Assembly (NCBI GenBank): GCA_025812035.1
Contig: GCA_025812035.1_4719.1
Origin: a phage
Direction: 5' to 3' (one strand)
Length of the DNA: 64,000 nt
Shown: one piece after another, positions 54,936 through 64,000 of the stretch
How the letters are laid out: each line of letters starts with the position of its first letter
How positions within the stretch are numbered: the stretch's first letter is position 1
Notes under the pieces: generated by a model
Seen by the model: only the letters and a program-made list of their open reading frames with translations
The model's database searches: none
What the model was told of the DNA's origin: nothing
Program-made: the position numbers and the translations under genes

Positions 54936-56582
54936 TTAGGCTCCACGAGGTCCCGTTAAGTTGCGTAATAGGAACGCAACCGTATCGTAACCAATATCGA
55001 TGTTGAATTTATTTTTACCACTTACCCAGAAAGCACGTTTCTTGTGCGAGTTGGTAATTTCGTCAATGGCTTCCATGGAATAAAGAACGTTAACCGAGAC
55101 CGTATCGCCATCAAAGTCCCCACCAAGTCCGGCGAGGTACGGGGCTGGAACAATAGTCGTTTCTACGAACGAAGCATTAGGTAACCAATCTGGGTATTCC
55201 CATGCGATAAATCGCTCATCCGTTATTGGTTCCCAGTTACTATCCAGTTCGGTTTTCGGTTTTGCTGCAACGGTCGTACGCGCATAACAGGTTAACGGAA
55301 TGACGGATTGCATACCCGATACCGGATAACGTGTTACCATCGCTGCCAGGTTATTCCAGTATTTATATCCAGCAATATAGATAAGCTCAGTATACGTAAT
55401 GGGGTGAACATCCGCCCCGGGTTTGTTAAGCATCTCTGGGGGTAATTCACTCATACCACGGAATAACCGAAACGAATCATTATTCACATAGACCAGGCAG
55501 AGATAACGTCCATTGACCATGATAGGTTCGTTACGCACACCTGGATCGCTTAAGGTGTTCAGTAAACGTTCTATCCCATCCCATGTTGTAAAGTCATCGA
55601 TGGTGTCTGGATCAAGCGTGACGCGTTCACGTTCCATCGTTTCGGTATCAATAAGTTCAACTTCTGTAACATCACGGACAAATATTTCCTGCAAAATCCC
55701 CGTACGTAACGCATGTTGCGTTACTGGGAGAGCAGCTTTACTCATCTGGTATAACCCTAACTGAACTGCAGTACAGGAAGGCTGGTTAGGCGACCCTAGT
55801 ACCTCCGTTGTGGGGTTAATTGCTGAAATAACGTTACGGGTTGAGTTCCAAACACGACGTGAGCCGAACTTACCTTGGAAGATCCCTTTCTTACCTTGGA
55901 ACATATCCAACAACAAAGCGTAGATGTCGTTAAATGTTCTCTGTAAGCTCCAGCGCTGACCGTCGTAAACGGGATCCGAATAATCTTTTAATCCATCCGG
56001 GACGGTGTTAGAAATTGCCAGGAAACGACGATACAACTCTGTGATTTCTTGCTCGCTTTCATACCCGCCTTCTTTTACTTCTATTTCACGTAAACCCGCA
56101 GGTAAAACCAGTAGATGACGAGTCATCGCTTTGAACATGTTCTCTTCGACAACCTTGATTCGTAGCTCTCGTTGAGCTGAACCCGTTGAAACGAACTTGA
56201 TATCAGCGACGTGTTGTGCAAAGAACCCGTATCCTGTTTGTCCTGTTAGCGCATCGGACGCAACGAAGTCACGTTGTTCAGGATCCCAACGCGCGTACGC
56301 CTTCCCCGACATGATATCACCGTAGAGGTGTTTTAGTCGAATGAGACGATCGTAGATGACAGGGTGTAGGATTTCAACTTTGCATTCAATCACCGCAAAT
56401 CGACGGTCTCGATCTTCGCTACCCGCACTACCAAAGATGGTGTATGAATAGAAACCGTCATCGTGGAAATTACCGGTGCTTGGATCACGAATGCTCATGC
56501 TCGTGATCTTGGGGAGAAAACGTAACTGCTGTTTATCGAGGTGTAAAATGCTAATATTAAACGGCTCTCTGACTTTAGCCAT
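54936..56582 (-). CDS. multisubunit RNA polymerase beta-prime N-terminal-like subunit without zinc ribbon (start trimmed to MAKVREPF)
   Basis: RRFAVIECKVEILHPVIY (compare beta-prime RMGHIELAAPVAHIW), GKKGIFQGKFGSRRVWNSTRNVISAINP (compare [27 protein letters not shown]) and intact GGDFDGDTVSVN catalytic motif; GAGGAG 8 nt before ATG at 56582. Confidence 0.65.
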   Translation of the reverse strand: MAKVREPFNISILHLDKQQLRFLPKITSMSIRDPSTGNFHDDGFYSYTIFGSAGSEDRDRRFAVIECKVEILHPVIYDRLIRLKHLYGDIMSGKAYARWDPEQRDFVASDALTGQTGYGFFAQHVADIKFVSTGSAQRELRIKVVEENMFKAMTRHLLVLPAGLREIEVKEGGYESEQEITELYRRFLAISNTVPDGLKDYSDPVYDGQRWSLQRTFNDIYALLLDMFQGKKGIFQGKFGSRRVWNSTRNVISAINPTTEVLGSPNQPSCTAVQLGLYQMSKAALPVTQHALRTGILQEIFVRDVTEVELIDTETMERERVTLDPDTIDDFTTWDGIERLLNTLSDPGVRNEPIMVNGRYLCLVYVNNDSFRLFRGMSELPPEMLNKPGADVHPITYTELIYIAGYKYWNNLAAMVTRYPVSGMQSVIPLTCYARTTVAAKPKTELDSNWEPITDERFIAWEYPDWLPNASFVETTIVPAPYLAGLGGDFDGDTVSVNVLYSMEAIDEITNSHKKRAFWVSGKNKFNIDIGYDTVAFLLRNLTGPRGA

Positions 56583-56702
56583 GGAGACACTCCTCTTTAC
56601 CACCACCGGCGGCGGTATCATCTGAACACACGAGAGACGTAATGGGTGATGGCGTCACCCATCGCTTCCTTGCTTGAGGCGAGGAAGTTATTAGGTTACG
56701 TA

Positions 56703-56725
56703 CCTGTTTGATAAAATCAAACAGG
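56703..56725. promoter_or_regulatory. perfect 10-bp-arm palindrome in divergent intergenic region
   Basis: CCTGTTTGAT-AAA-ATCAAACAGG between the beta-prime-like gene (start 56582) and the giant gene (start 56825). Confidence 0.4.
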
Positions 56726-56824
56726 CGATGTGTGAAGTTACGCTTCAACATTATCAATGCCGAAGGTAAACTTCGTGCATCACGTTCCAACGTAACATGG
56801 GAACGTATCGAACTGGAGGTATAC

Positions 56825-59800
56825 ATGGTAGATAAAACCCGTGTTGAGGGTGATGATAATTGGGACAACTGGGATGAAGACTTCTCCCTGGATCTCGATT
56901 TTAACGAGCCTAAAGACGATCGTAAACCAATAACACGCTTTGCGATAGGAGCGGTTAAAGGTGCTGCTGAGGATCTTACTTCCTACGAAAGAATGAAGGA
57001 GATCGCCAGAAACGCATTGCCTAAGGGCTATAGCGACGGTATGGATCTTATCGATTCCGCCGTCGGATCCACGAAGGAACTATACAATGAAGCCGTTCGT
57101 GATGTTCTTCCTAAGGTCCAAAGCTCAAAACGGTTAGCAGCACAACTAACCAAGAAATATCGTGCAAGCATGCCCGATTTCTCGAAGAAAATTATCGAGC
57201 GTTGGGAGCAAGAAGCCAAAGAAGAAGACGAACGTAAACAGGCTGAAGCAGAACTCAAGCAACGCATGGCGAACGCGGGAGATGATGAAATCGCCCGTAA
57301 GGTTGCCGAAGCGTTAGGCGAGTCAGCAAACCAAAGCGCGGATCAGTTTGCCGAACAGCAAGCAAAAGAAAGTATCCGTGACGATATTGCCGACAAACGG
57401 TACGCTGTAACCAACAAACAAATGAGTGCGATGCAAGAAGGCGTCGCCAAGATGGTTGGTTTCAACAACGAATTCGCTGCACGCTACATGCGTAAAAGCC
57501 TGGAACTGAAATATCGTTCCTTAGCGATTCAACGTGCAAGTTTTGATCAGCATAAAAAGTTAGCCGAAGTCTATATCGGTTTATTACAAAACATCCAGAA
57601 GAACACGGCTTTACCTGATGCAGCTAAAGCGAAAATGTCGGAAGAATTCCGTCGTAGTGCATACCAACGTTTCTTTGGTAATGCGTTAGATGCGATGAGT
57701 TCTTTCGAGAGCCGTTTCTTTGCCGATGTTAAGAAAAACCTTGCCACCAACGCATTAGGTGCTTTAAAAGGCGTCGTGTCTGGAGCAAACGATGCGTTAT
57801 ACGGTTTAAACGAAGCGCGTGACTCGATGTCCATGATGGATGGGATGGGGTCAGAAGGCGATATTAAGGAAATGCAAGGAAAGATGTTGGGTCAGTTTAT
57901 TGGCTCAACTGTTGCACCATGGATGGCTAATAAAGGCATGATGGCATTACGCGATTTAGCAAAACGTCATCCCAATGCTAAATTCGCAAGTGCGTTAAAA
58001 GCCGTGGATCAAGGTGGTGAGGCCGCCGCCTACACAACGCGTAATATCGGTAAACTGCTCCAGGAAGATATTCGTAAAAACGAATTCAATCTTAACGATC
58101 CGTTTTACAAGCAGTTGTTACGTGGTGCAGGGCGTTGGGCGTTCAACATGGACAGTGGACGTAACTTCCGTGTGATGAACGACACCGCTGAAACACTGGC
58201 GGAGCAAACGTCATTCGATGGTTTGACTTACCGCAGCATCAATGAGGTTATTCCTGGTTTTCTTGCTCGCATTCTGAAAAGCAGTGAAGGCATCCGCACG
58301 GGAAACAGTGATCCCGACTACGAGGTCTATGACGGCATCAGCGGGCAATTCGTGGCTCAGCGCACGCGCGAACAAAGCGTCAACGACACACTGTTTAACA
58401 AACGTTCGTTTGGTTATTACGCGAGTCGTTTCAATGAGGTCATCTCGGTCATCGATCCCGATAAACAGTTATCGGAAAAAGCCAGGAAGGCATTGGCTAA
58501 ACAGCTGGCACGAGACAGTGACGCAAACATCGCATTCGACCCAGCTCGTTTTACGGATGAAAGTAACTTCGATCGCAGTATCGACCGTGACGCTATTAAG
58601 GAACTTTCCACGTACTTCCGTGACCGTTACGGTATTCGCGATCATGTCGATGATAAGGGCGAACGTCAGCAAGTCATTGAAAACCGCGGGCAATATTACA
58701 CGGAACGTAACCGAGCGGATCTTCGTTACGGTAATCTGAAATCCTTACAGCCGGATATCCAGCGTAACCTTAACCTACTGAAACGTACTGGCGACGTCCA
58801 ATATCTGGAACGTATCGGTATCGTAACAAGAAATAGTGACGGTAGCTACTCGGTTAACCACGATCGGTATTTCTCTGAAATCGATCAATACATCGATCGA
58901 CCAGAGTACGCTGACCGCGGCGATGTCAGTACGCGATTAACCGATCAGGAAACAAGAGCGCTGGCGCTGGGTTATCGTGACGCAAAACCATCAACTGGCG
59001 ACGTCCAAAATTCTGGTCTGCCGAACATCGATCGTAAGGCTGCTGGAACAGTAACCGTTGATGAAAACATCGGTTACGATAAATGGTGGAATGACGCAGG
59101 TGTTATCACCACATCGCTTGAAGAACAGAATCGAGCATGGCAAGAGCTTTATCTCGAAGCGCTGTCTGAAGCATCCGAACAACGTGTTGAGATGCTTGCG
59201 TTACTGAAAGCCATTTCTGAGAAAGACTGGTCTAATAACGTTTCGCTGGATGGCGAAGACGTACCTGAAGGTACAGCACCCATTTCGTTTATCGATCGCG
59301 CTAAACAAAAACTCGGTACACACAACCTCTTTAAACGTGGTCGTAATCTCCTCTGGAAAGGAATTAAAAATACCGCACGGTTGGGTGTTAAAGGTGCGCG
59401 TTGGGGTGCAGAACGCACGTTGGGTAGTTTGGTAAATTCTGGCCGACGTATTATCAACTTCAACCGCTTCGTGTTCGGCGCATTATCCAAGGTTGATCAG
59501 GTTCCATTCGACATTTACGTTAAAGGGGAATCCCAACCGCGTATATTGGCAGCCAAGCTTCGTCAGGGGTTATACTTCGACGAAGCTACGGGAAAAGCCG
59601 TAAAACGGATGAAGGATATCAAAGGCCCACTCGTTGATGCAGATGGAAACATCGTAATCAGCAACGAGGATATCGAGAAAGGGCTGGTCACTCGCGCCGG
59701 TCGTGCTTTTGAGAATTCGGGACTTAAAGCGTGGGCGCGTGAAGGCCTTAATGGGATAACAACGGTATTAAGTCTACCACGGATGTTAAAACGCGGTGCG

Positions 59801-62800
59801 GTTGAGATCTATAAACAGCTTGACAAGACGCCCGACGTTTACGTCAAAGGAGAATCAACACCTCGCCTACTGTCCATGGTGTTAGCGGCGGGCGGGTATT
59901 TCCGTCGCTCTGATGGACAAGTCATCAAAAATCTTGAAGACATTGACGGTGACGTTGTTGATGCGCAAGGTAACGTTGTACTTACGCTTGCCGACATGCA
60001 GAAAGGGCTTGTCGATAAAAACGGTAAAGCGATTCGTCGCTTAAAAGAAAAGCTTATCAACTTCGGTGTGAAAGCTTTCACGTTACCGTTAACCCTGCTA
60101 CGTAAAACAAAGGACATCCTTAAAACCCTTCCCAGTAAAACGGTTAATGGTTTACGACGGATGGGATTAAACTTCCAATCACCTGATGCATTATTGGTAG
60201 GAACAACGTCGGGTATGGTAGATCGCCTCGATGCTATTTACCAGCTTCTTGACCAGCGTATGCCGGGTGGTGACAGGGATTATCGCGATTGGAATGGTGA
60301 CGGTGTTCGAGAAGGATCGTTGGAAGACCTGAAACGTAAACGTGAAGCCAAGGAAAACGGTAAGGATAACGCAGGCAAAGATTCTGGTAAAGGAGAAGAA
60401 AAGGAGAAGAAACGAGGATTACTCGGAAGCCTTTTCGATATGCTCGGCGATACCGCGTTAGGTAAACGACTCATGGCGAGTCCGCTTGGAAAAATCCTAG
60501 GTGGTCTTGGGGCGGTGTTAAGTGGTGGTGCATCACTAACCGGGTTGTTAGGTAAGGGACTTGTTAGAGGAACCGGTGCGCTGGTTAGAGGAGGACTCAG
60601 TGCGGCGGGATGGTTAGGACGTGGTGCGCTGATGGCTGGTGGGGCCGCACTTAATGCTGTTGGTGGTATGGCTGGACTAGGCGCGTTCCTCATCTCACCT
60701 GTTGGGCTTGCTATTGCTGGCGGTGCGTTGGCTGCTTATGCTGGATGGAAAATCTATCAGCATTTCGCTGAGAAGCCTGACCCAATGCAGAAGCTCCGTC
60801 TTATTGCATACGGTGCAAAAGGGGACGATAAAGACTTCAATAAGAAGTTGCTTGCGACAGAAACATACCTCACCGATCACGTGGTCATGACCGGGGACAC
60901 CATCGGATTCGATCCAAAAGCCGATTCTGAAAAGATTCTCGAAATCTGGGAATTGTCTCTGGAAGATTCCGATCGAATGAACGAATGGAAACGTTGGTAT
61001 CTGCATCGTTTTATTCCTGTTTTCGCTCGTGCGTACAAACTCTGGAAAGAGCATATGCCGGACGAGAAGAAATACATGGAAATGGACAAATATCCAAACG
61101 GTGAGAACAAAGTGAAATGGTCGGAAGCATTCATCTGGCCTTCCGATAGTCCTGACGGTCCGTATTACGTTGAGGCGAATCCGTTGGGTTCTTCCGGCGC
61201 GACGCTTTATATTGCCGGTCAAGACGTCAAAACCTTGATGCTGAAACAACTCGAAGCCATCAAGAAAGAGTACCAGAATCAGATTAAACAATACTCTCAT
61301 GATGAGGCTATTGCTGATTGGTCACGGATGTCTGACACACAGCGTAAATCCGTCGCACCTAATGCGTTGCGAGGCCAGAAAGCGTCATTACGTTTTAACG
61401 ATAAACGTTACAACAGTGCTGGTGCTAAAGGACGACAGAAACTGGATGCAACCGCGGTTATCGAAAGCGTAGACCGTCGTGGTAGAAAATGGGTTGCCGG
61501 TGGGTACATCGATGAACTCACCAGTCTCCGTGTTCGTGCGTACGGTATTAAGGTTCCGTTGCTAAGCCAGATAAAAGTGCTGATGGAACTCGAAGACGCT
61601 GTAGAACCGGGCGTTGTCGCTGAAGGTAAAGGCGTTAAATACGGCGGTGATCTTGTCGCTCTCTACAAGAAATTCGCGACGAAGTTCGGAAGAGACGTTA
61701 ACGGTAAACAGGATCAGGATATCTGGTTTGCTTGGATGAACAACCGTTTCCTGCCCGTCTTTTTAACCTATTACCAACAAGTTAGCGAAATGGGTGGTCA
61801 AGGTCTTCTGTCCGATGTGGTACAGAACCTGAAAGACAGCCAACGTTGGGAAATCGGTGAAGCGCTTGTCGCGACGCAATACCGCGATAAAAAGGGTGCG
61901 CTACAACCCGTGTGGTCGTGGAATAGCTGCGGTTTCTCCGGTACCGAAGCCAACACCACCAGCAGTTCAACAAAGAGCCAGCTCGATCTGTTAAAAGAAT
62001 ACGCGGATAAAGAGAAGGTTCGTGAGAAGAACGCGGAAGCATCGCAAGAGGATACCGATAAATTATCGAAGATCCAAGAGCTGATGATGAAGCAGGCTGG
62101 GTACGAGAAGAAAGACGGTGTCTGGCAGAAGAAATCTCGCATTACCGGCGGAATGAGTAATTCCGAAGCGAATTACAACCCCAATGGGAATAAAGTCGGT
62201 GCAAGCAGCTTTACCGCCTCGGCTACTTCCGGTGCGGGATTGGGATCAACCGGCGATCTTACTGGGTTGCCGAACATGGGCTTACAGAAACCTGCAACGG
62301 GACCAGGTCCTGAAGCTGGACGACGTACGCTTGTTAAATCCGCTGTGAAACACGGCATCACCGATCCAATGGAAATGGCCATGTTCCTTGCGAACATCGA
62401 ACATGAATCGGGGAACTACACTCACGTACGTGAGGGGAACTATAAGACGCCCGAGCGTCTTAAACAGGTCTTCCCTTACAAATTCCGTGACGTGCAGGAT
62501 GCCGCACAGACGATTAGCATGGGGCCAGAAGCGGTATTCGAACGTGTGTATGGTAATCGTAAAGATCTAGGGAACACACAGAAAGGGGACGGAGCGAAGT
62601 ATTTAGGACGTGGCTTCATTCAGGTTACCGGTAAAGCTAACTACGCTCGTCTGTCCAAGACCTTGAATAAGGATCTTGTCAGCGATCCGTCTTACCTGGA
62701 AACGCCGGAAGGTGCAGCGGAAGGTAGTGTTGCGTGGTGGCTCAACCGAGGTAACGTACTACGTGATCCCGCAAAACGGGGTGATGTACGCAAAGTTCGT

Positions 62801-63490
62801 TATCTGGTTAACGGCGGCTATAACGGATTACGTGATGTCGAACAACGTTCTGCCTATTGGATTCAGGCGGCTAAGAATGGCACCCTGAAGAAAATGATGG
62901 ACGAGTTATCGGGATCAACATCGGGCGATCAAACTGAAGGACCAACTACCGCCGAACAGGTGAAGAACGAAGCAGCGCAGGAGGCAAACGGAACACCTGC
63001 GACAAGCAACGATCCGCAAGCTCCAGCGCCTTCTACCACCCCTGAAGCTAAACCGGCTGCGGCTGCCGGGACGGCTCCAGCACCCGGAGAAACGTCACCG
63101 ACACCTGGAAGTTTCGAAACAGCAAAAGCCGCAGCAGGACAACCGGCATCAACCCCAGCACCGAGCGATTTACCGTCAAACCCCGGCGCAAATCGAGGGA
63201 TATCGGTTCCGAGCACACCTACACAGGTTGCGCAGTCAGCGTCACAAACATCGGCTGCAAGCGAGAACTTCTACGGTAGCGCAGGCGAAATTCTCCGACA
63301 ACAGCTGACCACACAGCAGAACATCGAGAAGAACACTGGTAGAACGAATGAACTTATTTCGGAACTGATCCAGGCCGTTAAGGGTTCTTCTATCGGTAAG
63401 GGTTCTGCAAGTCCTTCTCAACAACAGACGATGCCGCTACCTAATCGTCCGCAAGGAATCTCTCCGACACGGACAAGGTACGCACAGTAG
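56825..63490 (+). CDS. giant virion-associated protein with C-terminal GH19-type peptidoglycan hydrolase domain (tape-measure or ejection-protein-like)
   Basis: 2221 aa from the first in-frame ATG (GGAGG 8 nt upstream); coiled-coil-like charged N-terminal half, Gly-rich hydrophobic segment, C-terminal domain with MAMFLANIEHESG, YLGRGFIQVTGKANY and VAWWLNRG matching glycoside hydrolase family 19 signatures; a phiKZ protein of similar size and position is recalled. Confidence 0.65.
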   Translation: MVDKTRVEGDDNWDNWDEDFSLDLDFNEPKDDRKPITRFAIGAVKGAAEDLTSYERMKEIARNALPKGYSDGMDLIDSAVGSTKELYNEAVRDVLPKVQSSKRLAAQLTKKYRASMPDFSKKIIERWEQEAKEEDERKQAEAELKQRMANAGDDEIARKVAEALGESANQSADQFAEQQAKESIRDDIADKRYAVTNKQMSAMQEGVAKMVGFNNEFAARYMRKSLELKYRSLAIQRASFDQHKKLAEVYIGLLQNIQKNTALPDAAKAKMSEEFRRSAYQRFFGNALDAMSSFESRFFADVKKNLATNALGALKGVVSGANDALYGLNEARDSMSMMDGMGSEGDIKEMQGKMLGQFIGSTVAPWMANKGMMALRDLAKRHPNAKFASALKAVDQGGEAAAYTTRNIGKLLQEDIRKNEFNLNDPFYKQLLRGAGRWAFNMDSGRNFRVMNDTAETLAEQTSFDGLTYRSINEVIPGFLARILKSSEGIRTGNSDPDYEVYDGISGQFVAQRTREQSVNDTLFNKRSFGYYASRFNEVISVIDPDKQLSEKARKALAKQLARDSDANIAFDPARFTDESNFDRSIDRDAIKELSTYFRDRYGIRDHVDDKGERQQVIENRGQYYTERNRADLRYGNLKSLQPDIQRNLNLLKRTGDVQYLERIGIVTRNSDGSYSVNHDRYFSEIDQYIDRPEYADRGDVSTRLTDQETRALALGYRDAKPSTGDVQNSGLPNIDRKAAGTVTVDENIGYDKWWNDAGVITTSLEEQNRAWQELYLEALSEASEQRVEMLALLKAISEKDWSNNVSLDGEDVPEGTAPISFIDRAKQKLGTHNLFKRGRNLLWKGIKNTARLGVKGARWGAERTLGSLVNSGRRIINFNRFVFGALSKVDQVPFDIYVKGESQPRILAAKLRQGLYFDEATGKAVKRMKDIKGPLVDADGNIVISNEDIEKGLVTRAGRAFENSGLKAWAREGLNGITTVLSLPRMLKRGAVEIYKQLDKTPDVYVKGESTPRLLSMVLAAGGYFRRSDGQVIKNLEDIDGDVVDAQGNVVLTLADMQKGLVDKNGKAIRRLKEKLINFGVKAFTLPLTLLRKTKDILKTLPSKTVNGLRRMGLNFQSPDALLVGTTSGMVDRLDAIYQLLDQRMPGGDRDYRDWNGDGVREGSLEDLKRKREAKENGKDNAGKDSGKGEEKEKKRGLLGSLFDMLGDTALGKRLMASPLGKILGGLGAVLSGGASLTGLLGKGLVRGTGALVRGGLSAAGWLGRGALMAGGAALNAVGGMAGLGAFLISPVGLAIAGGALAAYAGWKIYQHFAEKPDPMQKLRLIAYGAKGDDKDFNKKLLATETYLTDHVVMTGDTIGFDPKADSEKILEIWELSLEDSDRMNEWKRWYLHRFIPVFARAYKLWKEHMPDEKKYMEMDKYPNGENKVKWSEAFIWPSDSPDGPYYVEANPLGSSGATLYIAGQDVKTLMLKQLEAIKKEYQNQIKQYSHDEAIADWSRMSDTQRKSVAPNALRGQKASLRFNDKRYNSAGAKGRQKLDATAVIESVDRRGRKWVAGGYIDELTSLRVRAYGIKVPLLSQIKVLMELEDAVEPGVVAEGKGVKYGGDLVALYKKFATKFGRDVNGKQDQDIWFAWMNNRFLPVFLTYYQQVSEMGGQGLLSDVVQNLKDSQRWEIGEALVATQYRDKKGALQPVWSWNSCGFSGTEANTTSSSTKSQLDLLKEYADKEKVREKNAEASQEDTDKLSKIQELMMKQAGYEKKDGVWQKKSRITGGMSNSEANYNPNGNKVGASSFTASATSGAGLGSTGDLTGLPNMGLQKPATGPGPEAGRRTLVKSAVKHGITDPMEMAMFLANIEHESGNYTHVREGNYKTPERLKQVFPYKFRDVQDAAQTISMGPEAVFERVYGNRKDLGNTQKGDGAKYLGRGFIQVTGKANYARLSKTLNKDLVSDPSYLETPEGAAEGSVAWWLNRGNVLRDPAKRGDVRKVRYLVNGGYNGLRDVEQRSAYWIQAAKNGTLKKMMDELSGSTSGDQTEGPTTAEQVKNEAAQEANGTPATSNDPQAPAPSTTPEAKPAAAAGTAPAPGETSPTPGSFETAKAAAGQPASTPAPSDLPSNPGANRGISVPSTPTQVAQSASQTSAASENFYGSAGEILRQQLTTQQNIEKNTGRTNELISELIQAVKGSSIGKGSASPSQQQTMPLPNRPQGISPTRTRYAQ

Positions 63491-63538: not shown

Positions 63539-64000
63539 CATGGGTATTCTTGTTCAAAACGCCCTAATCACCAAACAGGCGTTTTTATTACCAGGCGATA
63601 GCAGCACGCTTAGTGCCGACATGATTAAAGCGAGACATACACCGTATTCCTACGATAACGTCGATGATACCACCTTAGGTGGGAACTGGGTGCTTAACCC
63701 ACCACCGCAATATACAAAATTTGCTGATATCAAGGAACGACGGCGTGCGGTTATGCCGGGGTCAACGGGTATGGGTCGCGGCTACAGTGAAAGCATTAAC
63801 AGCTTTAAAGAAGTCGTTACGTTACGATTCGGTAAACCTCGCTTTACAGGCGCAAGTATCTTCTTCACTGATTTCTACGATGCGGATGTTGCTGTAACGG
63901 TTAAAACAGGCCGCGATCCTGGTATTCTTTATTACGCAGCCAAAGCGTATACGACCGTTCTTTCTTACCTCACACCCCTACCTTACTTGTATATGGTTGG
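63539..64000 (+). CDS. hypothetical protein, 3'-truncated by window edge
   Basis: Open frame from ATG at 63539 (GAGGA 8 nt upstream) to the window end without stop; not in ORF track. Confidence 0.45.

What the first reader, a model, noticed from the sequence alone, without database searches (positions are those of the whole stretch)
62320..62900. GH19-type peptidoglycan hydrolase domain at the C-terminus of a 2221-aa virion protein
The segment MAMFLANIEHESGNYT ... YLGRGFIQVTGKANY ... VAWWLNRG matches family-19 glycoside hydrolase signatures (catalytic Glu in HES, the YxGRGxIQ block and the W-W block). The phiKZ counterpart I recall carries a lytic-transglycosylase-type domain instead, so the enzymatic module on this giant tail or ejection protein may have been swapped.
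Basis: partly seen in the sequence, partly recalled or inferred. Interest (0 to 1): 0.5.

Follow-up and report, generated by a model that had tools for sequence, protein, structure and literature searches.

The report
GH19 muramidase module on giant tail protein
The giant 2221-residue tail protein of this Goslar-like E. coli jumbo phage does carry a cell-wall-cutting GH19 domain where phage phiKZ carries a different enzyme, but this is already annotated in phage Goslar and is common among related jumbo phages.

Summary
Observation confirmed. The window is 93% identical in DNA to E. coli jumbo phage Goslar. ORF 56825-63490 (+) encodes a 2221-aa protein. Residues ~1835-2025 (nt 62327-62899) form an endolysin-type GH19 domain. 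It matches solved GH19 endolysins at E 1e-22 to 1e-23, and its AlphaFold model (pLDDT 96) matches only GH19 folds. All nine active-site positions of the characterised muramidase PaGH19Lys are kept (eight identical, one Ile-to-Val), including E1861 and E1870. dN/dS against Goslar is 0.04. Pfam's chitinase-based model alone falls just below its cut-off.

The swap reading is supported. The protein is the positional and sequence orthologue of phiKZ gp181, with homology over aa 35-1730 and the same gene neighbours. gp181 has an SLT domain at the equivalent place. Across 110 homologues a conserved ~1800-aa body and a conserved C-terminal helix flank interchangeable wall-degrading modules: SLT 62, GH19 11, plus M23, CHAP, lysozyme2 and VgrG3-like. 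GH19 carriers are not monophyletic.

It is not new. Goslar's orthologue is annotated "putative chitinase" and was detected in virions at ~3-8 copies. GH19 versions occur in Erwinia, Ralstonia, Burkholderia, Klebsiella and Salmonella jumbo phages. The likely role is local peptidoglycan cleavage during entry by a tape-measure-like tail protein. Interest is low.

The parts
56825..63490 (+). Gene for the 2221-aa giant tail protein, orthologue of phiKZ gp181 and Goslar HOV27_gp204 / Goslar_00232
   Evidence: ORF and start codon. 93.2% nt identity to Goslar over the full length. No gaps and 66 aa differences against Goslar. Homology to phiKZ gp181.
56815..56819 (+). Shine-Dalgarno GGAGG, 5 nt upstream of ATG 56825
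   Evidence: Read directly from the sequence.
56825..60349 (+). Conserved N-terminal body (aa 1-1175), the part shared with all gp181-like proteins
   Evidence: PHROG 3201, E 1.2e-293, aa 11-1175. tblastn finds 273 phage records, mostly jumbo phages. 108 homologues in the protein collection.
59489..60082 (+). Internal tandem duplication (aa 889-971 and 998-1086, 42% identical)
   Evidence: Segment-against-segment BLASTP, E 3.5e-23.
60413..60754 (+). Gly/Ala-rich hydrophobic segment (aa ~1197-1310), the only candidate membrane-inserting region
   Evidence: Kyte-Doolittle peaks at aa 1224-1243 and 1267-1308. G+A fraction is 0.44 and charged residues 0.09 in aa 1201-1300.
60755..62044 (+). Second conserved body region (aa 1311-1740), containing a diverged internal repeat (aa 1319-1405 vs 1563-1651)
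   Evidence: Aligned to phiKZ gp181 up to aa 1730. Repeat E 1e-5. dN/dS 0.018 over aa 1311-1830, which also takes in the linker.
62045..62326 (+). Ser/Thr/Gly-rich linker (aa ~1741-1834), the upstream boundary of the enzymatic cassette
   Evidence: Alignments to the SLT-carrying homologues P0006, P0007 and P0008 end at WIN aa 1852, 1816 and 1760. Composition.
62327..62899 (+). GH19 endolysin-type catalytic domain (aa 1835-2025)
   Evidence: dN/dS 0.041 against Goslar.
62405..62407 (+). Codon of Glu1861, the predicted catalytic base (= E51 of PaGH19Lys / 9EOI)
   Evidence: Invariant in the 40-sequence alignment. Mapped through the HMMER alignment to 9eoi. Role taken from PMC12329726.
62432..62434 (+). 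Codon of Glu1870, the predicted catalytic acid (= E60 of PaGH19Lys; the E60Q variant had no observable activity at 1 nM)
62900..63262 (+). Pro/Ala/Ser/Thr/Gln-rich low-complexity linker downstream of the cassette
   Evidence: P+S+T+Q fraction of 0.38-0.43 in the 100-residue windows covering aa 2001-2200. A Goslar virion peptide, AAAGQPTSTPAPSDLPSNPGANR, maps here.
63263..63487 (+). Conserved C-terminal helix (ILRQQLTTQQNIEKNT...) and terminal NRPQGISPTRTRYAQ motif, shared across the family whatever the enzyme
   Evidence: Family alignment of the last 85 aa. hhalign of the Goslar-clade C-termini against the non-GH19 C-termini gives probability 87.5%, E 3.6e-6.

Best explanation
The segment is the catalytic module of a virion-associated peptidoglycan hydrolase. 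It is an endolysin-type GH19 domain, most likely an N-acetylmuramidase rather than a chitinase. It is built into the C-terminal part of the 2221-aa orthologue of phiKZ gp181, a low-copy internal tail protein that most likely acts as tape measure and ejection protein. Proposed course of events (inferred): the protein lies in the tail tube. After sheath contraction and outer-membrane puncture by the separate spike, it is expelled. The GH19 module, using Glu1861 and Glu1870, hydrolyses MurNAc-beta-1,4-GlcNAc bonds locally to open the cell wall. The Gly/Ala-rich hydrophobic segment helps to bridge or insert into the membrane. In evolutionary terms the enzyme is an exchangeable cassette. It sits between a conserved ~1800-aa body and a conserved C-terminal helix, and is separated from both by low-complexity linkers. 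Different jumbo-phage lineages carry SLT, GH19, M23, CHAP/lysozyme2 or VgrG3-like modules at this site.
For: SHOWN:
- GH19 identity by sequence and fold.
- The nine PaGH19Lys active-site residues H50, E51, E60, Y103, Q127, T129, I187, N188, R197 map to H1860, E1861, E1870, Y1909, Q1933, T1935, V1995, N1996, R2008.
- E32 and E41 of the domain are invariant in 40 homologues.
- Purifying selection: dN/dS 0.041 in the domain and 0.048 for the whole gene.
- Orthology to phiKZ gp181 by sequence and gene order; gp181 has SLT.
- Cassette architecture. Local phmmer finds SLT in 62 and GH19 in 11 of 110 family members, usually ending 170-250 aa from the C-terminus. Other members carry PF01551, PF05257, PF18013, PF21277 or PF02557. 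Alignments to SLT carriers stop at the domain boundary. The C-terminal helix is conserved.
- Repeated exchange in the neighbour-joining bootstrap. GH19 carrier P0021 groups with SLT carriers P0051/52/60 in 100% of replicates. P0062 groups with SLT carrier P0013 in 97%. P0101 groups with M23 carrier P0054 in 97%. All-GH19 monophyly appears in 0%.

FROM THE LITERATURE:
- The Goslar orthologue YP_009820915.1 (about 97% aa identity) was detected in purified virions with 34 peptides at ~3.4-8 copies per virion. One peptide lies C-terminal of the GH19 domain.
- The Goslar spike is gp13 with cap gp48. The downstream neighbour gp203 is the tube initiator.
- phiKZ orf181 is essential and 'likely the tape measure'.
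- The gp181 fragment is muralytic (Briers 2008, cited in PMC5380687).
- PaGH19Lys is a muramidase with no chitinase activity.
Against: - No enzymatic assay exists for this domain or for the Goslar orthologue.
- The Pfam GH19 model scores below its curated cut-off, and NCBIfam gives nothing.
- The position of the protein in the virion is not resolved. The Goslar cryo-EM preprint does not model or discuss it.
- The tape-measure role does not fit a simple ruler. The Goslar tube is 46 layers x 39.16 A, about 180 nm, whereas 2221 aa as an extended helix would be about 333 nm. phiKZ has a shorter tube (43 layers) but a slightly longer protein.
- The sister group of the Goslar clade is unresolved (32% bootstrap), so the direction and timing of the swap in this lineage are not established.
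Confidence: 0.83

Rival explanations
1. The GH19 module is the phage's end-of-cycle lysis enzyme. [quoted passage not shown] Under it the module is not an entry enzyme.
For: Korf et al. 2019 suggested this (PMC6563267). The closest solved relatives are endolysins. I did not identify a separate endolysin in the window or in Goslar. Goslar has only one GH19 locus.
Against: The domain is part of a ~248-kDa protein that is found in purified virions, and a peptide downstream of the domain was detected there. The gene sits between virion-RNA-polymerase genes and the tube-initiator gene, not in a lysis cassette. In phiKZ the orthologue gp181 is distinct from the gp141-144 lysis cassette, whose endolysin is gp144. 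The nearest GH19 relatives among cultured phages are all inside giant tail proteins.
Confidence: 0.06
2. It is a true chitinase or another polysaccharide depolymerase, acting on a surface glycan rather than on peptidoglycan.
For: GenBank names the Goslar orthologue 'putative chitinase' with COG3179. GH19 was defined on chitinases. Weak hits to plant and Streptomyces chitinases exist, at E 5e-4 and weaker.
Against: Similarity to endolysin-type GH19 proteins is about 20 orders of magnitude stronger than to chitinases. TM-scores are 0.67-0.81 to endolysins against 0.48-0.59 to chitinases. The characterised relative PaGH19Lys cleaves MurNAc-GlcNAc bonds and is inactive on chitin. E. coli has no chitin.
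Confidence: 0.03
3. The GH19 and SLT modules diverged in place from one ancestral lysozyme-superfamily domain, with no exchange of modules.
For: GH19 and GH23/SLT both belong to the lysozyme-like superfamily (Holm and Sander, as cited in PMC12329726). hhalign weakly aligns the first helix and the catalytic Glu-Ser of both (E 0.055).
Against: The GH19 module is 42-46% identical to free-standing ~205-aa GH19 proteins and to GH19 modules of distantly related giant proteins. The flanking body is only 24-29% identical to SLT carriers. P0021 (GH19) shares 53% body identity with SLT carrier P0052 and groups with the SLT carriers in 100% of bootstraps. Non-glycosidase modules (M23, CHAP) occupy the same site.
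Confidence: 0.03
4. The domain is retained only as a structural or peptidoglycan-binding element and is catalytically inactive.
For: There are no activity data. The second Trp of the classical W-F/Y-W chitinase block is Leu here (VAWWL, against the consensus WFW).
Against: Both catalytic Glu residues and the seven other active-site positions are conserved. dN/dS is 0.04. The phiKZ counterpart module is highly active.
Confidence: 0.05

Closest known systems
Escherichia phage vB_EcoM_Goslar protein Goslar_00232 / HOV27_gp204 (QBO64023.1, YP_009820915.1)
   Same: Same gene. It is 93.2% identical in nucleotides, with 66 aa differences and no gaps over the 2221 codons that correspond to the window's ORF. 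It has the same GH19 module, 98% identical by tblastn, and the same neighbours. It is annotated 'putative chitinase, COG3179' in GenBank and 'tail fiber protein' in RefSeq. It was detected in virions.
   Different: The Goslar record starts the CDS 31 codons upstream, at GTG, giving 2252 aa. Goslar also has a 2045-bp insertion containing a group I intron in the neighbouring RNA-polymerase gene, which this window lacks.
Pseudomonas phage phiKZ gp181 (NP_803747.1), structural peptidoglycan hydrolase and likely tape measure
   Same: Similar size (2237 vs 2221 aa). Homologous body over aa 35-1730. Gly-rich hydrophobic middle segment. Enzymatic module about 190 aa from the C-terminus. Related C-terminal helix. 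Same gene order.
   Different: Its enzymatic module is SLT/GH23-type, Pfam PF01464 at aa 1885-1978, reported as a glycosidase of lysozyme or lytic-transglycosylase type. The window's module is GH19, and the two show no significant similarity.
GH19 endolysins: PaGH19Lys (9EOI), SPN1S endolysin (4OK7), KTN6 gp46 (8P8E)
   Same: Same fold. About 30% identity, with TM-scores of 0.73-0.76 normalised to the query. The catalytic pair has the same 9-residue spacing, and all listed active-site residues are shared.
   Different: Those are free-standing proteins of ~200-220 aa that act from within at lysis. Here the domain is an internal module of a 248-kDa virion protein.
Giant 'lysozyme domain' / 'tail fiber' proteins of Erwinia Ea35-70-like, Ralstonia RSL2-like, Burkholderia FLC6/8/9, Proteus phage 10, Salmonella SA002 and Klebsiella N1M2 jumbo phages
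   Same: They are the closest cultured-phage relatives of the GH19 module (36-45% identity). Those that also appear in the N-terminal body search (Ea35-70-like Erwinia phages, FLC6, SURPRISE13, RsoM3USA) carry it in the homologous giant protein.
   Different: Different hosts. The body is only ~24-27% identical. Some carry additional modules.
Tape-measure proteins with muralytic modules (for example T5 Pb2), as listed in the review PMC5380687
   Same: [quoted passage not shown]
   Different: No detectable sequence relationship was tested or claimed. This is a myovirus with a separate spike. The ruler function has not been demonstrated.

Membership tests
Glycoside hydrolase family 19, endolysin subfamily | Significant sequence similarity to established GH19 members | tested here: met
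   PDB phmmer hits: 9eoi 2.8e-23, 7r6s 1.4e-22, 4ok7 9.2e-20, then GH19 chitinases. 92 homologues, most carrying PF00182. NCBI names a 98%-identical fragment 'glycoside hydrolase family 19 protein' (P0109).
Glycoside hydrolase family 19, endolysin subfamily | Match to Pfam PF00182 at or above its gathering score | tested here: inconclusive
   18.4 bits for the whole protein and 23.6 bits (E 5e-5) for the domain alone, against a cut-off of 25.5. Only model positions 102-142 are matched. The model is named 'Chitinase class I', whereas this domain's close relatives are endolysins. Close orthologues P0001-P0005 likewise carry no precomputed Pfam hit.
Glycoside hydrolase family 19, endolysin subfamily | Two catalytic glutamates (base and acid) in the HES...E arrangement, plus the conserved active-site set | tested here: met
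   E1861 and E1870 are invariant in 40 sequences. Of the nine PaGH19Lys active-site residues, eight are identical and one is an Ile-to-Val change.
Glycoside hydrolase family 19, endolysin subfamily | All-alpha, two-lobed GH19 / lysozyme-like fold | tested here: met
   AF2 model with pLDDT 96.4 and pTM 0.89. The top Foldseek PDB hits are GH19 endolysins and GH19-like domains, followed by GH19 chitinases; TM-score to 7r6s/9eoi/4ok7 is 0.73-0.81.
Glycoside hydrolase family 19, endolysin subfamily | Hydrolysis of MurNAc-beta-1,4-GlcNAc in peptidoglycan | not testable with these tools
   Needs a purified domain, a turbidity assay and muropeptide LC-MS.
phiKZ gp181-like giant tail protein (PHROG 3201) | Homology of the ~1800-aa body | tested here: met
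   PHROG 3201 at E 1.2e-293. BLASTP to gp181 at 4e-43 and 1e-36. 108 homologues of 1331-3129 aa, most 2000-3100 aa.
phiKZ gp181-like giant tail protein (PHROG 3201) | Conserved gene order: divergent virion RNA-polymerase beta genes upstream, and the gp182 / tube-initiator gene downstream | tested here: met
   Window ORF 54936-56621 (-) lies upstream. Goslar, PA7 and phiKZ annotations agree.
phiKZ gp181-like giant tail protein (PHROG 3201) | Cell-wall-degrading module near the C-terminus, followed by the conserved C-terminal helix | tested here: met
phiKZ gp181-like giant tail protein (PHROG 3201) | Presence in the virion | not testable with these tools
   Literature only: the Goslar orthologue was detected by LC-MS/MS at ~3.4-8 copies per virion.
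Tail tape measure protein (functional class) | Lies in the tail-tube lumen and sets tail length | not testable with these tools
   Only 'likely' according to PMC12676376. It is not modelled in the Goslar structure. A simple length rule does not fit.
Tail tape measure protein (functional class) | Hydrophobic Gly-rich segment, low copy number, and a gene next to the tube-initiator / hub genes | tested here: met
   These features are supportive, not defining.
SLT / GH23 lytic transglycosylase (PF01464) | Match to the SLT model or to the gp181 SLT module | tested here: not met
   No PF01464 hit in the window protein. phmmer with the gp181 module does not find WIN. hhalign probability is 1%.

The most novel reading that the evidence does not exclude
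The site between the conserved body and the C-terminal helix of gp181-like giant tail proteins is a recombination hotspot. Jumbo phages trade wall-degrading cassettes there (SLT, GH19, M23, CHAP, VgrG3-like). The choice of cassette would be adaptive: a GH19 hydrolase in place of a GH23-type enzyme could let the entry apparatus evade host factors that act on GH23/lysozyme-type enzymes, or could suit a host's peptidoglycan chemistry. The existence of such host inhibitors is my own recollection and was not checked here.
Probability: 0.2. Interest if true: 0.45.

Novelty: already known. Interest (0 to 1): 0.2.

Why it matters
It matters mainly for annotation. 'Tail fiber protein' (RefSeq, PHROG 3201) and 'chitinase involved in lysis' are both misleading names for this protein. 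It is better described as a gp181-like internal tail or tape-measure protein with a GH19 muramidase entry module.

The family-wide picture is a tidy example of modular evolution. One conserved scaffold carries at least six interchangeable wall-degrading modules, exchanged several times. It also offers a set of naturally fused, possibly robust muralytic domains for enzyme engineering.

I found no paper that describes this cassette series explicitly. It is nonetheless what specialists in virion-associated lysins would expect.

Tried and rejected
- NCBIfam scan of the whole protein found no family.
- Rfam scan of the whole window at gathering thresholds found nothing.
- An HMM built from the C-terminal 85 aa of non-GH19 family members did not hit the window protein directly. 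It hit the other GH19 carriers and P0005 at 7e-4. Only the profile-profile comparison linked the Goslar clade.
- Whole-protein self-BLAST showed no repeats. Segment-wise comparison was needed to see them.
- The Goslar cryo-EM preprint contains no mention of tape measure, peptidoglycan, lysozyme, chitinase or gp204 in its text. Only its Table S4 was informative.
- Searches for a described Goslar endolysin gave nothing usable. The lysis-enzyme rival is therefore rejected on context, not by finding the real endolysin.
- A ruler calculation does not scale between Goslar and phiKZ (about 1190 aa before the hydrophobic segment x 1.5 A = 179 nm, against a 180 nm tube). I do not rely on it.
- A simple host-taxon explanation for cassette choice was considered and dropped. 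GH19 versions occur in phages of Enterobacterales and also of Ralstonia and Burkholderia.
- The crude GH19 domain tree loosely groups the embedded modules together. Identities to free-standing proteins are equally high, so the source of the cassette is left open.

Full report
**What the window is**

The region is collinear with Escherichia phage vB_EcoM_Goslar, a nucleus-forming jumbo phage of genus Goslarvirus. Nucleotide identity across the gene in question is 93.2%. ORF 56708-63490 (+) has its most plausible start at ATG 56825, 5 nt after GGAGG. The three quoted motifs lie at aa 1851-1866, 1926-1940 and 1969-1976.

**Is it a GH19 domain?**

- Pfam Glyco_hydro_19 gives only a partial, sub-threshold match. 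It scores 18.4 bits on the whole protein and 23.6 bits on the isolated domain, against a cut-off of 25.5. NCBIfam gives nothing.
- The decisive evidence is similarity to solved endolysin-type GH19 proteins: 9eoi at 2.8e-23, 7r6s at 1.4e-22, 9ms6/9ms7 at ~9e-22, 4ok7 at 9e-20 and 8p8e at 7e-18. Classical chitinases follow at E of 5e-4 and weaker.
- PHROG 181 'endolysin' scores 9e-53.
- In the large protein collection there are 92 homologues. Most are ~200-aa proteins carrying PF00182, at 42-46% identity.
- An AlphaFold model built from a 40-sequence alignment has pLDDT 96.4. Its best Foldseek matches in the PDB are GH19 endolysins and GH19-like domains, followed by GH19 chitinases.
- PaGH19Lys (9EOI) is the best-characterised relative. 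It is a muramidase that cuts MurNAc-beta-1,4-GlcNAc and is inactive on chitin. Its active site is H50, E51, E60, Y103, Q127, T129, I187, N188, R197, and the E60Q variant showed no observable activity at 1 nM (PMC12329726).
- Mapped through the HMMER alignment, these residues correspond to H1860, E1861, E1870, Y1909, Q1933, T1935, V1995, N1996 and R2008. E1861 and E1870 are invariant columns in the alignment.
- Against Goslar the domain has 4 amino-acid changes in 191 codons, with dS 0.22 and dN/dS 0.041.

The domain is therefore real, intact and under constraint. It spans aa ~1835-2025 (nt 62327-62899).

**What carries it**

- The first 1175 residues match PHROG 3201 at E 1e-293.
- tblastn finds the N-terminal half in 273 phage records, mostly jumbo phages of Pseudomonas, Erwinia, Vibrio, Serratia, Aeromonas, Klebsiella, Salmonella and Ralstonia.
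- phiKZ gp181 (2237 aa) aligns to aa 35-683 and 887-1730, at E 4e-43 and 1e-36.
- Gene order is the same in the window, Goslar, PA7 and phiKZ. Virion RNA-polymerase beta-subunit genes lie divergently upstream, and the gp182 / HOV27_gp203 gene lies downstream.
- gp181 has Pfam SLT at aa 1885-1978 (28.4 bits, above its cut-off). The literature describes its fragment as a very active muralytic enzyme (Briers 2008, via PMC5380687).
- No similarity is detectable between the two enzymatic modules (hhalign probability 1%).

**Cassette architecture**

A search with aa 1-1802 returned 108 homologues of 1331-3129 aa, most of them 2000-3100 aa.

- Combining precomputed Pfam hits with local phmmer, 62 of 110 family members (including gp181) have an SLT module and 11 (including the window protein) have GH19.
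- Others have Peptidase_M23, CHAP, Phage_lysozyme2 or the T6SS VgrG3-like C-terminal domain, sometimes with VanY, Peptidase_S74 or DUF5675 in addition. About 19 members are untyped.
- The module usually ends 170-250 aa before the C-terminus, and further away where extra domains follow.
- Alignments between the window protein and its nearest SLT-carrying relatives run from the N-terminus to aa 1852, 1816 and 1760 (P0006, P0007, P0008). They stop in the S/T/G-rich linker or at the first residues of the GH19 domain.
- Downstream, a P/A/S/T/Q-rich linker is followed by a C-terminal helix and a short P-x-P-V-S-M-R-type tail. These recur across the family whatever the enzyme.
- For the Goslar clade this link needs profile-profile comparison, which gives probability 87.5% and E 3.6e-6. 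A plain HMM search missed the window protein.

**Exchange has happened repeatedly**

I built a neighbour-joining tree of the body from 1402 columns with 60 bootstraps.

- GH19 carrier P0021 groups with SLT carriers P0051/52/60 in 100% of replicates. Its body is 53% identical to P0052.
- P0062 groups with SLT carrier P0013 in 97% of replicates.
- P0101 groups with M23 carrier P0054 in 97% of replicates.
- Monophyly of all GH19 carriers appears in 0% of replicates.
- The sister of the Goslar clade itself is not resolved (32%). SLT as the ancestral state there is only an inference from its being the majority.

Among cultured phages, the closest relatives of the window's GH19 module (36-45% identity) lie in jumbo-phage genomes. 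The features under the matches are annotated as tail fiber, lysozyme-domain or chitinase proteins. The phages include the Erwinia Ea35-70 group, Ralstonia RSL2, Burkholderia FLC6/8/9, Proteus phage 10, Salmonella SA002 and Klebsiella N1M2. Several of these also appear in the search with the N-terminal body. Goslar has a single GH19 locus. Free-standing metagenomic GH19 proteins are about equally similar, so the donor cannot be named.

**Function**

- The old view of gp181 as the cell-puncturing needle no longer fits. In the 2026 Goslar cryo-EM preprint the spike is gp13 with cap gp48, and the tube initiators are gp62 and gp203. The giant protein is not modelled or discussed.
- Table S4 of that preprint lists YP_009820915.1 ('Tail protein; putative chitinase') with 34 peptides and 24% coverage, at an estimated 3.4-8 copies per virion. 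One peptide lies in the linker downstream of the GH19 domain, so the module stays on the virion protein.
- A phiKZ transposon study found orf181 free of insertions and calls it 'likely the tape measure' (PMC12676376).
- The window protein has one strongly hydrophobic Gly/Ala-rich stretch, at aa ~1197-1310.

Taken together, the best reading is a low-copy internal tail protein that is expelled at infection. Its GH19 module opens the peptidoglycan locally. The location in the tube, the order of events and the membrane role of the hydrophobic segment are inferred, not shown. A strict ruler role is doubtful, because the tube is about 180 nm long (46 x 39.16 A) whereas 2221 aa as an extended helix would span about 333 nm. 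phiKZ also has a shorter tube but a slightly longer protein.

**Rivals**

- Lysis endolysin. This was Korf et al.'s suggestion. It is contradicted by virion incorporation, genomic context and the separate phiKZ lysis cassette. I did not locate Goslar's own endolysin.
- True chitinase. This is contradicted by the much stronger similarity to muramidase-type GH19 proteins.
- In-place divergence from SLT. This is contradicted by the identity pattern and by the trees.
- Inactive domain. This is contradicted by active-site conservation and dN/dS.

**Novelty**

The Goslar orthologue has been annotated 'putative chitinase, COG3179' since 2019. NCBI names a 98%-identical E. coli-assembly fragment 'glycoside hydrolase family 19 protein'. 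Several homologues in other jumbo phages are annotated as chitinase, lysozyme-domain protein or glycoside hydrolase. The gp181 SLT module has been known since 2008.

The family-wide cassette series documented here is a modest comparative addition that I did not find spelled out in the searchable literature.

Noticed in passing
window 55115-55117, inside ORF 54936-56621 (-); Goslar locus L001 4245-6289: Compared with Goslar, the window lacks a 2045-bp insertion in the virion RNA-polymerase beta-subunit gene. In Goslar that insertion holds the annotated group I intron (Intron_gpI) and ORF Goslar_00230, which resembles phiKZ ORF179. The window therefore has an uninterrupted 561-aa gene, that is, an intron-less allele. 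Rfam finds no intron anywhere in the window.
   Followed up: partly
window 56708-56824: The Goslar GenBank and RefSeq records start the giant gene 31 codons upstream, at a GTG (window 56732), giving 2252 aa. The ATG at 56825 has a strong GGAGG, and homologue alignments begin there, so the annotated Goslar start is probably too far upstream.
   Followed up: partly
window 59489-60082 and 60779-61777 (aa 889-1086 and 1319-1651): There are two internal duplications in the giant protein. aa 889-971 vs 998-1086 are 42% identical (E 3.5e-23). aa 1319-1405 vs 1563-1651 are 28% identical (E 1e-5) and share a 'R..AYG...W...RF.PVF' motif. Their function is unknown.
   Followed up: partly
window 63540-64000 (+), cut by the window end: This is the start of the orthologue of Goslar HOV27_gp203 / phiKZ gp182, which the Goslar cryo-EM preprint assigns to the tail-tube initiator complex. 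It supports a tail-assembly context for the giant gene.
   Followed up: partly
proteins P0021, P0051, P0052, P0060: gp181-like giant proteins occur on contigs of 143-492 kb in Caballeronia and Paraburkholderia genome assemblies. One is named 'cell pole-organizing protein PopZ' by NCBI, which is probably a mis-annotation caused by the low-complexity linker. They may be jumbo-phage genomes assembled together with their hosts.
   Followed up: no
RefSeq NC_048170 HOV27_gp204, phiKZ PHIKZ181, PA7 gp187, PHROG 3201: The whole family is widely labelled 'tail fiber protein', which the evidence does not support. Some GH19-carrying members (for example Burkholderia FLC6 and Ralstonia FLC4 phages) are annotated 'soluble lytic murein transglycosylase'.
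   Followed up: partly
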